Below the pieces are notes generated by a model, which ran no database searches, was not told the origin of the DNA, and saw nothing but the letters and a program-made list of their open reading frames with translations. This document shows, piece by piece, positions 34,354 to 38,133 of a DNA stretch of 64,000 bases; position 1 is the first letter of the stretch, and each line of letters begins with the position of its first letter. Both the position numbers and the translations under genes were made by a program. This stretch comes from Paecilomyces variotii (Eukaryota). The DNA lies in assembly GCA_004022145.1 (NCBI GenBank), contig RCNU01000002.1, one strand, 5' to 3'.

Positions 34354-34670
34354 GATTACAGCGAAACCGAAGACCGGAAAAGACAGGAAGGAAATATAGG
34401 AAGAAATGAATGGAAGAAATGAATGCGAAAGAGGACATAATTGACCTCTGGGGGGCACCAGTAATGGAAACAGCAGTTTTGGGAAGGCTCAAAGCTCAAA
34501 TGTCACCATCAGCACCTGCCTCCTCCGGTATTCGTATAAGCTGCAAGGTGCGAGCAGTATCTGGATTCTGATGACAACACAAGCTCCCCTACCTGCTACA
34601 AACAGCAGTAGTCACGGTATAGTTTGATTCCCCTTTATCAGAAATTGTACATACTCATGATTTGTAGTAC

Positions 34671-35168
34671 ATGAGCATACCCGCCATCGCGCACGAAGTT
34701 AATGATCTCCGAAAAGACAGCGATGAATCTGCAATATACGGCATCTGGGATGTCATCCTGAACTGGACTTTTCCAGTCACAGCGGGATATATCACCCGTC
34801 CACAAGTAAGCCATTCGTTTCATGACGGCAAGAGAGGATATTCAGATTTTCATACATTCGAATTGGGAGTGCAACCGTGGAAACTCTTCCTCATCACACA
34901 GTGCAAGGCGTACAAACTGCAGAGTTATGAGTCTGTTTGGGATAATGGATACTTCCAGTTGCGAGAGTATATCCGCTCCCAGCACCCTGACAGGACTGCC
35001 ACCTCCCCTATTTACGAGATCTTAGCTGTTGGGCAGCGCGTGAGCTTCTTCTTATTCAACCCTGTAACCCAGCACCTGCATGCATGGCGGCCAAGTGCTC
35101 AGTGGGCATTGGCACATCATACTGCTCATGGAAAGCGTCGGATTTCTAAATGTGAAATGCCATTCTAA
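34671..35168 (+). CDS. PD-(D/E)xK restriction-endonuclease-like fold protein (possibly incomplete)
   Basis: E...W..IL...FP...GY...PQ, GYSDF, LITQCK, W....QLREY and IYEILAVG..VSFF, in the order expected for the REase-fold core with a QLxxY helix. Confidence 0.6.
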   Translation: MSIPAIAHEVNDLRKDSDESAIYGIWDVILNWTFPVTAGYITRPQVSHSFHDGKRGYSDFHTFELGVQPWKLFLITQCKAYKLQSYESVWDNGYFQLREYIRSQHPDRTATSPIYEILAVGQRVSFFLFNPVTQHLHAWRPSAQWALAHHTAHGKRRISKCEMPF

Positions 35169-35380
35169 TATGTATCTAGCTAATAAAATATATAGCCTCT
35201 AGCTACTAAACTAATTGCCCATTCTGATATCTCCAATGTAGACATCCGTAGCCAAGTATCAACATCGCATCCTCCCTCTATCCACCCATCTCCACGTGAC
35301 CACATCCTTCCCCTTTAGGCAATCCCCCCAAACAAAGAACACCCCTATATATTCCAGAATAACATAACCCCAATCAACAG

Positions 35381-35631
35381 CGGAGTCCAGATGGCGTAGT
35401 GGTCTGGAAAACCACCCACAGCTCCATCTAGCTAGAGGCTCCCTGTTCGAACCTCGGGGTCGGCGTGAGGGCGTCAGAGCCAAAAAGATTGCTCTGGGCT
35501 CCAGTGACCGTCAGAAACGTTCCTCAGTTCTTAGAGATTGCAAAAGCCTGCCCGCCAAAAGCAAGGTGGGCTTTTCGTAGCACCCCACGGCTCTCTGATA
35601 TAAAGGAGAGGTGAGGGTGTGAGCTTTTTTT
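35381..35631 (+). ncRNA. Putative RNA polymerase III-transcribed structured ncRNA (about 250 nt), not a canonical tRNA
   Basis: TATATA at about 35346-35351, A box TGGCGTAGTGG 35392-35402, B box GTTCGAACC 35445-35453, several G-U-containing helices, T7 at 35625-35631. Confidence 0.65.
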
Positions 35632-35650
35632 GAATTCGGCTTTTTTTTTT
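35625..35650 (+). terminator. Pol III-type oligo(T) terminator (T7, with a T10 backup)
   Basis: T7 at 35625-35631 directly after the last hairpin and T10 at 35641-35650. Confidence 0.6.
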
Positions 35651-35787
35651 ATTTGATGCTTTTCTTAAATGCTGGTTTATAGACACGGAGGACGCTTGTG
35701 TTCAAGCTGCCCTTGCATACACTTTGAACAGCCATTAGGTTGATACCGGATACGAGTTCAGATTGAATTATATCTAAGCTATCATAC

Positions 35788-37006
35788 CTATCCTTCTACC
35801 TGGTTTCTTGTATTTTCCTCTGCCTTTCTGGATTCTTTTCCTTCTTTTCGGTTCCCTTTCGCCCCTCTAGTATCGACCCTCTTCCCCTTCGGATGTGGTT
35901 TCCCAGTCAACTCGGACGGCAACTCCTGGACGACCTTCCCGTTCTCAAAGAGAATCCCCAGGCCTGCCTTTCGTTCAACAACCACATCGAAGAACTCAAG
36001 CGGGACAACCTTCTGCTTGGTATCTTTTCCATTGCTCGCTTCGCCCGTATCCATACCCTCACTGAGAATGACGCCATTCTCACTCCGCCAAAACGGACAC
36101 CCAGCCTCCAGCGCTTTTTTCAGATTAATGTATATCAGCACCTGCGCGTCTCTGCGCATTCCCGATATCACATGTCCGTTCTGGAGATCCTTCCTGCTAT
36201 CCAGCAATTTTACTTGTCCACCTTGACCTTCTGGCATGATGGATTCAAGCGACGGCCCTGTCGCGAAGTGGACATGGTTCCGACTCATACATCGCAGTCC
36301 CCCGGAAGCCAGGATTGCCGGCCATGCGGCGTGATATGTACCATGCACGACTGTATCTGGAAGGGCCTTTGCAGTTTCTGGGGCATCGTCGGACAGAGAT
36401 AGTCTTTCTAGGAATGAAGCCGCATCTACTGTCTTGATACTGTGTCCCTGAGTAGCGCGTATTAGGAAATGCGATGGATCTGAATCATCGACGGACAGCG
36501 CATGGGCCGTCGAGCTCTGCTGCTCCTGACTCGTAGAAGGCGCGGACCCAAGAATCGTCGAGGAATCGTCCTCCGCGGGTGTAGGCCCCTCGTGTGTTCC
36601 GTCTGCGACGGTAGATTTTGTAGGTTCTGCGGTGGCTTCTTCTTTCGATGTGTCGGCCGAAGCGGAGGGGATGTGTAATAGCGCAAAGCGCTTTTTATCT
36701 GACGAGTCGACAGCGTGCAAGATCTCAGGAAAGGTGACTTTGAGAGACTTGATCTTCTTCCAGGCTAGCTGTTTAGATAATAGCAATCAAATAGCCCGTC
36801 AGCATCTACCTTCGTTAAAACGGCAAACAGTGGCCAGAGGGTGGTTTAAGGCCAAGTGTACATACCACGTCCGCCACATTAGCGTAGCCTTGAGAATTCA
36901 TCTTTAGCCCTTCCCTTTCCGCCGCATGTCGTAGGAGATAGCTTAAAGCTTTTGAGACTGCTACATCTCGCGACGGCTCACGTCTGTCTTTGCGCGGTCG
37001 AGACAT
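35788..37006 (-). CDS. TPT1: tRNA 2'-phosphotransferase Tpt1/KptA
   Basis: VSKALSYLLRHAA, DKKRF, IRATQGHS, VHGTY, MSRNHVHF and SENGVILS motifs; intron at 36865-36769. Confidence 0.95.
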
Positions 37007-38133
37007 GGTGGGCCGGTGATGGAGTGCAGTGCAGTGATGAAGGGAACGTATCCGCAATAGTCCCCGGCTGCTCAGAGCCGTAGCTGCTTTTCAAGGTTCG
37101 ATATGCTCTATCTGTGTGATGGAGTGATCAGTTTTGATACAGGTAGTACTGTAGCGTGACCGGGAAAGAAAAAGAAGTAAGCGGTACCTGAGTCAGGAAT
37201 GGCCCTCGTAGCTATACAATATAGAGCCACCGGCTAGTGATGTACTCTCGAGTTAGAATGCCTAGAGTAACATCTAACTGGATTCGTGAGCAAAGCAAAC
37301 GCGTCTTTCTGCAGAATTTCCGCGTATGCGGGGTTTCGTAGAGCTTTCTCAGATTAGAGTAGATCAATTGTGGGGGCGCGGCGGATGTTCCGCTTGACAT
37401 CATCGCTTCTTTTCCGCAGTCGTGCTGGTTACTGGATGTAGAAATTTAGAGAGAGATATCAGACATTCAAGCCTGCAATTTGTTGCAGTAGGTTATCATA
37501 TTTTGTTGGCAATATAGCTGCTACGATCTCGGAGCAGCAGTCGACGACCTTGCGTTATTACTGTTATCCTAGTCCCATGGTTCCCACGATTGATATGGAT
37601 GTGCAATATTTGTAGGCCTGTATAACTAAGCGACTGGTACACTTGAAATCTTCTATATAATACAATAAGTCCCCAATCCATCCTGGTGGAGGCGCTATTT
37701 ACTCGCTCTTGGCCCTCGCACGCTCCGTCGCTCGAAATCTTCGCTTCGGGCAGAGCCAAATCCTCGCCTCCAAGAGGACGCCATTGAAAGGGTGAAGGAC
37801 GAGGGACGCAATCAAAATGCACAAATGGCGCAGAAGAGCAATCAGTATGAGGAAGTGTGAGATAGTAACACACGGAAAAGTCTATCCTGCTGAAAATGTA
37901 ATAATGCTTTGACTCAGGCATGATGGAGCTCATAGTGCCCAGGAATTCCATAGTCTCAAAGTTATGTTGTCCAACTGTAACAAACAGTCATGCGTCGGTG
38001 TTCTCATGCCTCCAGTCACGTCTCCAGTGTTCAGTACCGGATATTAGACAGTCGAGCGAGGATACACCACTGTTCAGTCCATGCAGAATTTTCTCCGCGT
38101 TGACTTCAATCTCGGAGTCCTTCTACCAAGAGA

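What the first reader, a model, noticed from the sequence alone, without database searches (positions are those of the whole stretch)
35340..35650. Unannotated Pol III-type structured RNA gene with a tRNA-like promoter but a non-tRNA fold
Seen in sequence: TATATA about 30 nt upstream of the likely start; consensus A box TGGCGTAGTGG (35392-35402) inside a hairpin TCCAGAT/GTCTGGA (35386-92/35402-08); B box GTTCGAACC (35445-53) at tRNA-like spacing; a stem TGAGGGCGT/ACGTTCCTCA (35466-74/35517-26) enclosing hairpin CAGAGC/GCTCTG (35475-80/35491-96); hairpin AAAAGCCTGCC/GGTGGGCTTTT (35542-52/35565-75); hairpin CACCC-CAC-CTCTCT/GGAGAG-GTG-GGGTG (35581-35619); then T7 and T10. The mismatches are G-U wobbles that pair only on the + strand, which points to selection on RNA rather than DNA palindromes. 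Established: A box + B box + oligo(T) defines type-2 Pol III genes. I see no acceptor or anticodon cloverleaf and none of the hallmark motifs of U1, U6, SRP, RNase P/MRP or 5S. Inference: an uncharacterised ~250-nt ncRNA, or a tRNA-headed SINE or small-RNA precursor, lying tail-to-tail with TPT1.
Basis: partly seen in the sequence, partly recalled or inferred. Interest (0 to 1): 0.8.

Follow-up and report, generated by a model that had tools for sequence, protein, structure and literature searches.

The report
Unlisted Pol III small-RNA gene in Aspergillus-like fungus
A roughly 250-base stretch beside the TPT1 gene of a mould has every signal of a small RNA gene read by RNA polymerase III and matches no catalogued RNA, but it probably belongs to a small family already called SINE-like in Aspergillus fumigatus.

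Summary
A+B occurs once in 64 kb and in 0 of 300 shuffles. ARAGORN finds no tRNA and Rfam 15 no family. The head hairpin (z -2.9) and the two 3' hairpins (z -4.2) fold better than shuffles and better than the opposite strand; the middle part does not.

Contigs from four public runs show a conserved unit bounded by the TATA and the T-run. It occurs in several sequence variants with different flanks and swapped middle modules. Contigs from cDNA libraries start at 35376-35380. In a relative about 93% identical, the element differs at 4 of 245 sites and the flanks at 30 of 407.

By eye it shares five collinear words with AfuSINE2-3c of A. fumigatus. This copy has no target-site duplication and no A-rich tail, and likeness between copies extends upstream of the start.

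Best reading: a genuine Pol III gene of a low-copy, lineage-restricted, SINE-like RNA family. Its function is unknown. Paralogues could not be told from orthologues, because no genome was on hand.

The parts
35330..35340 (+). Upstream block AAACAAAGAAC, 36-46 nt before the likely start. It may be an extragenic promoter element.
   Evidence: The loose end of a 3863-nt contig with different flanks (X15/X16 at 35347) carries the same 11-mer and the word TAGGCA in the same order as the window. This was compared by eye. The word is not enriched in the window: 2 matches at <=1 mismatch, 0.96 expected.
35346..35353 (+). TATA box (TATATATT), 23-30 nt before the likely start
   Evidence: Sequence. Likeness between contig variants begins at 35348 (tables 7 and 8).
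35376..35380 (+). Likely transcription start zone
   Evidence: RNA-library contigs begin at 35376 (X17, study P9, with a strand-switch joint at that base) and at 35380 (X15 and X16, study P8). Contigs of X12 run across the place (tables 5 and 8).
35378..35445 (+). 5' long imperfect hairpin (head). Its 5' arm holds the A box.
   Evidence: -27.8 kcal/mol, z -2.94, minimum-energy fold equal to the centroid; 35397 U.G becomes C-G in most other contigs, and the indels fall in the apical loop 35404-35411.
35392..35402 (+). A box TGGCGTAGTGG
   Evidence: the only match in 64 kb, both strands
35445..35453 (+). B box GTTCGAACC. It is preceded by T where the recalled consensus has G. It lies 42 nt after the A box.
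   Evidence: No difference is listed in 35412-35473 among the contigs shown (table 3; 36 rows were not shown).
35454..35541 (+). Variable middle module, not significantly structured
   Evidence: z 0.03; one variant replaces 35455-35541 with 27 letters that resemble a second B-box region, and another joins 35403 to 35542. The loop 35481-35490 carries 5 of the listed substitutions.
35539..35579 (+). 3' hairpin 1 (AAAAGCCTGCC/GGTGGGCTTTT), ending in T4 at 35572-75. The T4 may be a weak early stop.
   Evidence: The stem has two G-U pairs, which pair only on the + strand.
35580..35620 (+). 3' hairpin 2. More divergent variants share it.
   Evidence: with hairpin 1, -38.5 kcal/mol, z -4.24; contigs with a different sequence before 35586 share 35586-35629, including X17 record 25 at depth 262. 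35585 C-G becomes U.G, and the deletion at 35614 hits a bulged A.
35625..35631 (+). T7, the Pol III terminator
   Evidence: Likeness between variants ends at 35629-35630 (tables 7 and 8).
35641..35650 (+). T10, a back-up terminator
   Evidence: Another copy also has a second T-run 3 nt after the first (loose end at 35630 in X15 and X16).

Best explanation
This is a genuine RNA polymerase III transcription unit with a hybrid promoter.

Inferred mechanism, from the textbook Pol III model (recalled):
- TFIIIC binds the intragenic A box (35392-402) and B box (35445-53).
- TBP/TFIIIB sits on the TATA at 35346-53.
- Transcription starts near 35376-35380.
- It stops in T7 (35625-31), with T10 as a back-up and perhaps some early stops at the T4 after the first 3' hairpin.

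The RNA, about 250 nt, has three parts: a 5' hairpin of about 68 nt that contains the A box, a poorly structured and exchangeable middle module, and two stable 3' hairpins followed by a U tail.

It belongs to a low-copy, lineage-restricted family of such units in Aspergillus-like fungi. The family is SINE-like in build: a Pol III head, an unrelated body and modular variants. It is probably the family filed as AfuSINE2-3c in A. fumigatus.

This copy is inherited in place and changes more slowly than its surroundings. I read it as a maintained RNA gene, not a decaying retroposon. What the RNA does is not known.

Shown: the motifs, the fold, the absence from Rfam, the variants with different flanks, and the lower divergence.
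Inferred: Pol III use, the start site, family membership within one genome, and selection.
For: 1. Promoter and terminator grammar is complete and non-random. A+B occurs once in 64 kb and in 0 of 300 shuffles. The exact head pattern matched in 0 of 100 shuffles. The TATA lies 23-30 nt before the contig starts, the A box begins at about +13 to +17, and the A-B gap is 42 nt.

2. Structure is specific to the + strand. Head z -2.94 against -1.92 on the other strand; 3' hairpins z -4.24 against -1.95.

3.. In all 4 runs laid, from 3 studies, contig variants align only from about 35348 to about 35630 and then run into unlike flanks (loose ends at 35347 and 35630). Modules are swapped (joints 35454->35542 with 27 other letters, and 35403->35542). 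Another copy also has a double T-run. The cDNA run X17 holds contigs identical to the window over 35376-35569.

4. Divergence in the relative about 93% identical (X15) is 4 of 245 sites in the element against 30 of 407 in the flanks and the TPT1 tail. Fisher p = 0.0009 (counts).

5. I placed the listed changes inside the RNA on the fold. About 12 fall in unpaired places. Three keep a pair through G-U/G-C changes (35397, 35474, 35585). Three break a pair (35500, 35536, 35541).

6. Against retroposition of this copy: no flanking direct repeat, and upstream blocks shared with another copy.

7. Five collinear exact words (8, 8, 8, 7 and 7 nt) are shared with AfuSINE2-3c (Table 1 of PMC5063351, by eye). 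Among 3131 window segments of 201 nt, 3 reach 38 chained bases and 6 reach 5 words.
Against: - No Pol III occupancy data and no mapped RNA ends. Contigs cannot show strand, ends or level. X15 and X16 also cover the silent left flank at depth 56 and 43, so they may hold DNA.
- No second copy lies in the 64-kb window. No genome was held. So 'family within one genome' is not shown: the variants could be orthologues from several fungi in mixed samples.
- The contigs used for the divergence count were assigned to the orthologous locus by best likeness, not by physical linkage. The only linked piece (35348-35405, 1 difference in 58) is too short to be significant.
- Table 3 leaves out 36 differences, so the tally of paired against unpaired changes is incomplete.
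- The whole-unit fold is only marginal (z -1.99), and the middle module is unstructured.
- The link to AfuSINE2-3c is a by-eye chain found among 13 sequences compared, so p is roughly 0.01-0.03 after correction. It was not aligned with a tool.
- Both metagenome scans gave no homologue.
Confidence: 0.55

Rival explanations
1. It is an ordinary tRNA-promoter-headed SINE. It was spread by a LINE's reverse transcriptase, is now fixed at this site, and has no function of its own. Its Pol III signals are what made it mobile.
For: - The build is SINE-like: an A/B head, an unrelated body, and modular variants with different flanks.
- One divergent variant in X17 is followed by a run of about 24 A directly after the T5 (table 7).
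- It resembles AfuSINE2-3c, which its authors class as a SINE with at least 4 Southern bands and RT-PCR signal (PMC5063351, sections read).
Against: - No target-site duplication around this copy.
- It has no A-rich or simple-repeat tail and ends in its own terminator, with a back-up T-run that another copy also has.
- Likeness to another copy continues at least 30 nt upstream of the TATA (blocks TAGGCA and AAACAAAGAAC, by eye). A retrocopy of an RNA that starts at 35376 would not carry these.
- The element diverges 4-5 times less than its flanks.
- No copy in the other 63.7 kb. No LINE tail could be compared.
Confidence: 0.2
2. It is a single-copy cellular ncRNA gene conserved across many Eurotiales. 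On this view the 'variants' in the mixed samples are orthologues from different species, not paralogues.
For: - X15, X16 and X17 are food metagenomes, which can hold several moulds. X12 is very large (1665 million letters) and holds at least two related genomes (records 1 and 2).
- The 3863-nt contig shares upstream blocks with the window, as a distant orthologue would.
- The element is far better conserved than its flanks.
- No second copy in the window.
Against: - Whole modules differ between variants: the middle part is replaced by a second B-box-like piece, and other 3' hairpins appear after 35583 and 35563. That is unusual for orthologues that are over 85% alike elsewhere.
- In X17 every contig over the flanks and TPT1 is identical to the window, yet a divergent variant of the 3' hairpin is present at depth 262.
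- AfuSINE2-3c gives 4 or more Southern bands in one strain, if it is the same family.
- A widely conserved 250-nt Pol III RNA would probably be in Rfam, where nothing matches.
Confidence: 0.15
3. It is a Pol III-driven precursor of small RNAs, like the Pol III-dependent microRNA-like RNAs of Neurospora (recalled). On this view the 68-nt head hairpin or the 3' hairpins are diced or cut.
For: The head is a long imperfect hairpin of about 24 pairs with z -2.94. Two further stable hairpins follow. This reading is compatible with the best explanation and is not exclusive of it.
Against: No small-RNA data were seen. The RNA-library contigs span 100-190 nt of the unit, which fits a stable long RNA. 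The A box constrains the hairpin arm, so the hairpin may exist for other reasons.
Confidence: 0.1
4. It is a decayed tRNA gene, or a chance meeting of motifs, with no transcript of its own.
For: - One A+B pair per genome of about 35 Mb is expected by chance. This is my own arithmetic from the motif frequencies, in line with 0.98 A boxes per shuffled 64 kb.
- There is no cloverleaf.
Against: - TATA, start, A, B, two structured hairpins and a double terminator lie in the right order and spacing.
- The unit recurs as a bounded block in 4 runs.
- It is conserved above its flanks.
- Contigs from a cDNA library match it exactly.
Confidence: 0.03

Closest known systems
AfuSINE2-3c of Aspergillus fumigatus Af293 (Kanhayuwa & Coutts 2016, PMC5063351; I read Table 1 and sections 14, 17, 18 and 20)
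   Same: - It is a low-copy (4 or more Southern bands), RT-PCR-positive unit of about 200 nt with degenerate A and B boxes. Its authors relate it to tRNA-Ala and report that it has no cloverleaf fold.
- By eye, five exact words stand in the same order in both: CAGATGGC at the A box, CGGGGTCG just after the B box, AGCCAAAA, CCAGTGA and GGGCTTT.
- A chain that long is rare against window segments: 3-6 of 3131.
   Different: - Likeness is patchy, with indels of 10-25 nt between the words.
- The published unit stops near the first 3' hairpin and lacks the last hairpin and T-run.
- Its authors report degraded target-site duplications; I find none here.
- It was not aligned with any tool, because the published sequence could not be passed on. 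The paper's supplementary alignments were closed.
Yeast Pol III genes with tRNA-like promoters outside tRNAs: SCR1 (TATA plus internal A/B), RPR1 and snR52 (A/B in a cleaved leader), and ZOD1/RNA170 (a transcribed tRNA relic). All recalled, not from a call.
   Same: An A box and B box at tRNA spacing drive a non-tRNA RNA. There is a TATA near -30 as in SCR1, and a T-run terminator.
   Different: There is no sequence or structure match to SRP, RNase P or any snoRNA model. Whether the head is cleaved off as a leader is unknown. Those yeast genes are single-copy.
tRNA-derived SINEs and the ncRNAs that arose from them, for example rodent BC1 from tRNA-Ala and Mg-SINE of Magnaporthe (recalled)
   Same: A Pol III head with A and B boxes, a body unrelated to tRNA, family members with swapped modules, and lineage restriction.
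   Different: This copy has no target-site duplication, A-rich tail or LINE-like tail. The promoter includes conserved upstream DNA, and the unit ends in its own terminator.
Rfam families for fungal small RNAs (SRP, RNase P/MRP, U6, 7SK, Afu_* and the rest of Rfam 15)
   Same: Its size and structured nature.
   Different: No hit at gathering score in the window. On 35200-35800 at E<=10 there is none apart from a chance ceN56 match at 14.9 bits against a gathering score of 60.

Membership tests
Type-2 / hybrid Pol III gene | Intragenic A box (recalled consensus TRGCNNAGTGG) 10-20 nt after the start | tested here: met
   TGGCGTAGTGG at 35392-402. It is the only match in 64 kb; shuffles average 0.98 per window.
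Type-2 / hybrid Pol III gene | B box (recalled consensus GGTTCGANNCC) 30-60 nt after the A box | tested here: met
   GTTCGAACC at 35445-53 after a 42-nt gap. The first consensus G is T here. A+B occurred in 0 of 300 shuffles.
Type-2 / hybrid Pol III gene | Run of T as terminator on the coding strand | tested here: met
   T7 at 35625-31 and T10 at 35641-50. Contig likeness ends at 35629-30.
Type-2 / hybrid Pol III gene | Transcript made by Pol III (occupancy, alpha-amanitin profile, 5' triphosphate, U tail) | not testable with these tools
   Only contigs of public RNA libraries were available. They cover 35376-35630 but show no strand or ends.
tRNA gene | Cloverleaf with acceptor and anticodon arms | tested here: not met
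   ARAGORN found 0 genes. There is no tRNA-model hit even at E<=10. The head folds as one long hairpin.
SINE | Many dispersed copies in one genome | tested here: inconclusive
   Several variants with different flanks appear in 4 runs, but paralogues cannot be told from orthologues. There is no second copy in the window and no genome was held.
SINE | Target-site duplication flanking the copy | tested here: not met
   No direct repeat brackets 35310-35380 and 35630-35660.
SINE | Copies begin at the RNA start and end in an A-rich, simple-repeat or LINE-derived tail | tested here: not met
   Likeness to another copy runs upstream through the TATA to blocks at 35316-35340 (by eye). This copy ends in T7 with no A-rich tail. 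Similarity to a LINE tail could not be tested.
AfuSINE2-3c family | Significant sequence similarity over the unit | tested here: inconclusive
   Five collinear words totalling 38 nt were seen by eye in Table 1. In the null, 3 of 3131 segments reach 38 nt and 6 of 3131 reach 5 words. Thirteen sequences were compared. No tool alignment was possible.
Known structured RNA families (Rfam 15) | Score at or above the family's gathering threshold | tested here: not met
   0 of 4227 families.
Leader-promoter genes (RPR1 / snR52 type) | The A/B-bearing 5' leader is removed from the mature RNA | not testable with these tools
   This needs mapped RNA ends.

The most novel reading that the evidence does not exclude
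The unit and its relatives, including what was filed as AfuSINE2-3c, may not be retroposons at all. They may be a selected family of Pol III-transcribed regulatory RNAs found across the genus. The family would have its own upstream promoter element, a head hairpin that overlaps the A box, an exchangeable middle module and a conserved double 3' hairpin. That would make it a fungal counterpart of lineage-specific Pol III regulators such as BC1 or 7SK, and no such class is catalogued for filamentous fungi in Rfam 15.
Probability: 0.25. Interest if true: 0.65.

Novelty: new member of a known kind. Interest (0 to 1): 0.4.

Why it matters
Outside tRNA, 5S, U6, SRP and RNase P RNA, very few Pol III transcripts of filamentous fungi are catalogued. 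Genome annotation pipelines leave units like this one blank.

If the family is maintained by selection, it is a new class of fungal small RNA to test by deletion. It would also correct a 'SINE' label in A. fumigatus.

If it is a SINE, it is a rare low-copy fungal example that could serve as a strain or lineage marker.

In either case the compact TATA + A/B + T-run cassette is a candidate native Pol III promoter for expressing guide RNAs in food and industrial moulds.

Tried and rejected
- Known RNAs. ARAGORN and Rfam at gathering score and at E<=10 gave nothing. By eye, against recalled motifs, I saw no U6 ACAGAGA box, no SRP helix-8 motif, no RNase P/MRP CR-I, no H/ACA or C/D boxes and no Sm site.
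- Own genome: none is held.
- Second copy in the window: none (blastn, word 7, E<=10).
- Homologues in public collections. The head pattern found 0 in metagenome contigs. The B-box 20-mer and the 3'-hairpin 23-mer found 0 in viral contigs. The hairpin-1 pattern found 55 metagenome loci, but all are unrelated, mostly bacterial terminator-like hairpins. blastn of the element against them gave one 17-nt chance hit.
- Literal search for a 19-nt stretch of the element in 8.4 million papers: 0.
- AfuSINE3 / SINE3-1_AO. A resemblance of hairpin 1 to the body of AfuSINE3-1a rests on one 10-nt word, and the same pattern is common in bacteria. I dropped it.
- Target-site duplication: none.
- Cover in RNA runs. 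In X17 no contig covers 35150-35365 or 35636-35797. In all runs summed depth is 3-10 times higher inside 35339-35635 than outside.
- The A-run after the T5 in an X17 variant could be a retroposon tail, a poly(A)-tailed Pol III RNA or an assembly join. It is left open.
- Papers. Jochl et al. 2008 (PMC2377427) has no occurrence of 'polymerase III', 'A box', 'B box' or 'SINE' (term search only). Gao et al. 2021 (PMC8216456; term search and section 17) describes no Pol III unit that I could match to this one.
They hold the AfuSINE alignments and may bear on the family link.
- Earlier findings of this scan: nothing relevant.

Full report
WHAT IS THERE

On the + strand, window 35330-35650 reads in this order:
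- the block AAACAAAGAAC (35330-40);
- TATATATT (35346-53);
- an A box, TGGCGTAGTGG (35392-402);
- a B box, GTTCGAACC (35445-53);
- about 170 nt of further sequence with two strong hairpins;
- T7 (35625-31), nine other bases, and T10 (35641-50).

The - strand carries TPT1 in two exons, 36815-37090 and 35791-36786. Both hit Pfam PF01885, at E 5.9e-12 and 4e-44. The two units therefore lie tail to tail, about 140-160 nt apart.

IS IT MORE THAN CHANCE?

The A-box consensus (recalled) occurs once in the 64 kb on both strands, and A followed by B occurs once. By my own arithmetic, one chance A+B pair is expected per genome of about 35 Mb, so the motifs alone would not be enough. The evidence below is what removes chance.

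NOT A KNOWN RNA

ARAGORN finds no tRNA in the window. Rfam 15 (4227 families) gives no hit at gathering score in the whole window. On 35200-35800 with permissive filters at E<=10, the only hit is a chance match to a nematode sRNA, at 14.9 bits against a gathering score of 60. This excludes SRP, RNase P/MRP, U6, 7SK, tRNA and the Afu_* families as far as those models reach.

FOLD

The whole unit is only marginally better than shuffles: -94.7 kcal/mol and z -1.99 on the + strand, against -87.1 and z -1.64 on the - strand. By domain the picture is clearer.
- Head, 35376-35445. It forms one long imperfect hairpin whose 5' arm is the A box. Energy -27.8, z -2.94, with 2 of 200 shuffles as good. The - strand gives z -1.92.
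- Two 3' hairpins, 35539-35624. Energy -38.5, z -4.24, with 0 of 200 shuffles as good. The - strand reaches only -30.3, z -1.95.
- Middle part, 35463-35538. No significant structure (z 0.03).

WHAT PUBLIC READS ADD

Twenty of the 24 listed runs hold part of the stretch. I laid three metatranscriptome runs (X15 and X16 from one study, X17 from another) and one run of unknown kind (X12). All four are stored as contigs, so they can show presence, variants and joins, but not strand, ends or level.

Four things stand out.

(a) A bounded unit. Many contigs align only between about 35348 and about 35630 and then continue into unlike sequence. There are loose ends 'before 35347' in X15 and X16, and 'behind 35630' in X15, X16 and X12. 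The conserved unit therefore runs from the TATA to the T-run.

(b) Several variants. One has 35455-35541 replaced by 27 letters that resemble a second B-box region (X15, X12). One joins 35403 to 35542 (X15, X16). Others have a different apical head, a different hairpin 1 or a different last hairpin. The last hairpin, 35586-35629, is shared by more divergent forms, including an X17 contig at depth 262 that is followed by a run of A.

(c) Shared DNA outside the RNA. One 3863-nt contig with other flanks shares the upstream words TAGGCA and AAACAAAGAAC with the window, in the same order (by eye). Another copy again has two T-runs after the last hairpin.

(d) Contig starts. X17 holds contigs identical to the window over 35376-35478 and 35449-35569, and over TPT1. 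Contigs begin at 35376 in X17, where there is a strand-switch joint at that base, and at 35380 in X15 and X16. X12 contigs run through the place. The tool rates this as a weak hint of an RNA end. It would put the TATA 23-30 nt before the start and the A box at +13 to +17.

X15 and X16 also cover the silent left flank at depth 56 and 43, so they may contain DNA and prove no expression.

CONSERVATION

X15 holds a relative whose flanks differ from the window at:
- 15 of 198 sites (35150-35347);
- 7 of 99 sites (35656-35754);
- 8 of 110 sites (35841-35950, the TPT1 tail).

The most similar element contigs differ at 1 of 58 sites (35348-35405, physically linked to the left flank) and at 3 of 187 sites (35444-35630). 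That is 4 of 245 against 30 of 407, Fisher p = 0.0009.

The caveat is that the 187-nt contig is assigned to the orthologous locus by likeness, not by linkage.

I placed the listed changes on the minimum-energy fold.
- About a dozen fall in loops or bulges: 35404, 35409-11, 35481, 35487-90, 35511, 35518, 35614 and the T-run.
- Three turn G-U into G-C or the reverse: 35397, 35474 and 35585.
- Three break a pair: 35500, 35536 and 35541.

This leans towards a constraint on structure. It is not a test, because 36 differences were not shown and neighbouring changes are not independent.

SINE OR GENE?

For a SINE:
- the build, with a Pol III head, an unrelated body and modular variants;
- one variant with an A-run;
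- the likeness to AfuSINE2-3c.

Against a SINE, at least for this copy:
- no target-site duplication;
- no A-rich or repeat tail, and an internal terminator with a back-up that another copy also has;
- likeness between copies that continues upstream of the RNA start;
- divergence four to five times lower than in the flanks;
- no second copy within 64 kb.

I therefore read it as a maintained Pol III gene of a small SINE-like family. I cannot exclude that the variants seen in mixed samples are orthologues from several fungi, because no genome was held. The two metagenome scans gave no homologue: 0 hits, and 55 unrelated loci. The viral scans also gave 0.

CLOSEST KNOWN

Kanhayuwa & Coutts 2016 (PMC5063351; I read Table 1 and sections 14, 17, 18 and 20) list 13 low-copy 'AfuSINE' sequences in A. 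fumigatus. They describe AfuSINE2-3c as 201 nt, related to tRNA-Ala, RT-PCR-positive, with 4 or more Southern bands and no cloverleaf.

By eye, AfuSINE2-3c shares five exact words with the window unit in the same order:
- CAGATGGC at the A box;
- CGGGGTCG after the B box;
- AGCCAAAA;
- CCAGTGA;
- GGGCTTT.

Indels of 10-25 nt lie between the words.

As a null, I chained shared words of 7 nt or more between the unit and 3131 other 201-nt segments of the window. Three reach 38 bases and six reach five words. With 13 sequences compared, the link is suggestive (roughly p 0.01-0.03) and not proven. I could not pass the published sequence to an aligner, and the paper's supplementary alignments were closed.

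A first impression of likeness to the 5S-headed AfuSINE3 body did not hold up. It rests on one 10-nt word, and the same pattern is common in bacterial terminators.

HOW IT MOST LIKELY WORKS

Inferred from the standard Pol III model (recalled):
- TFIIIC binds the A and B boxes, and TFIIIB/TBP binds the TATA.
- Transcription starts near 35376-80.
- It ends at T7, with T10 as a back-up and possibly some early stops at the T4 that follows hairpin 1.
- The U tail next to a stable hairpin would bind La and protect the RNA.

The function of the RNA is unknown. The head hairpin could also be a source of small RNAs, as with the Pol III-dependent microRNA-like RNAs of Neurospora (recalled). Nothing here tests that.

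VERDICT

It is a real, unannotated Pol III-type RNA gene, absent from Rfam. It is probably a member of a low-copy Aspergillus family that the literature has touched under the label SINE. I rate it a new member of a known kind, with interest 0.4.

Noticed in passing
L004, L005, L009-L011, L013-L015, L018, L020-L024, L026, L029, L030, L041, L048 (around the match, e.g. L013:1440-1540): About 20 of the 55 metagenome loci caught by the hairpin pattern share a conserved stretch of about 60 nt with GC-rich hairpins, followed by a perfect terminator hairpin. In L013 it lies between a XerC/D-like integrase gene and a PemK/MazF toxin gene, next to rpsO. No Rfam family matched in the 6 loci scanned. It may be an uncatalogued bacterial small RNA and is unrelated to the fungal element.
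   Followed up: partly
window 34668-35168 (+): An open frame of 166 codons ends 180 nt before the TATA and has no Pfam match. If it is a real gene, its 3' UTR runs towards the Pol III unit, so the unit would sit between two convergent mRNA ends.
   Followed up: no
window 35754-35841: In the relative about 93% identical (X15, X16), 86 nt around the TPT1 stop codon are replaced by 78 other letters, while both sides align at about 93% (table 5). The C-terminal tail and 3' UTR of TPT1 are a hotspot of change, in contrast to the RNA unit 130 nt away.
   Followed up: no
window 35586-35629, variant contigs in run X17: A divergent copy of the last hairpin is present at depth 262 in a cDNA library and is followed, directly after T5, by about 24 A (tables 7 and 8). 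This could be a polyadenylated Pol III transcript, a retroposon tail or an assembly join.
   Followed up: no
whole window: Runs of T7 or longer are unevenly spread between the strands: 12 on the + strand against 2 on the - strand.
   Followed up: no
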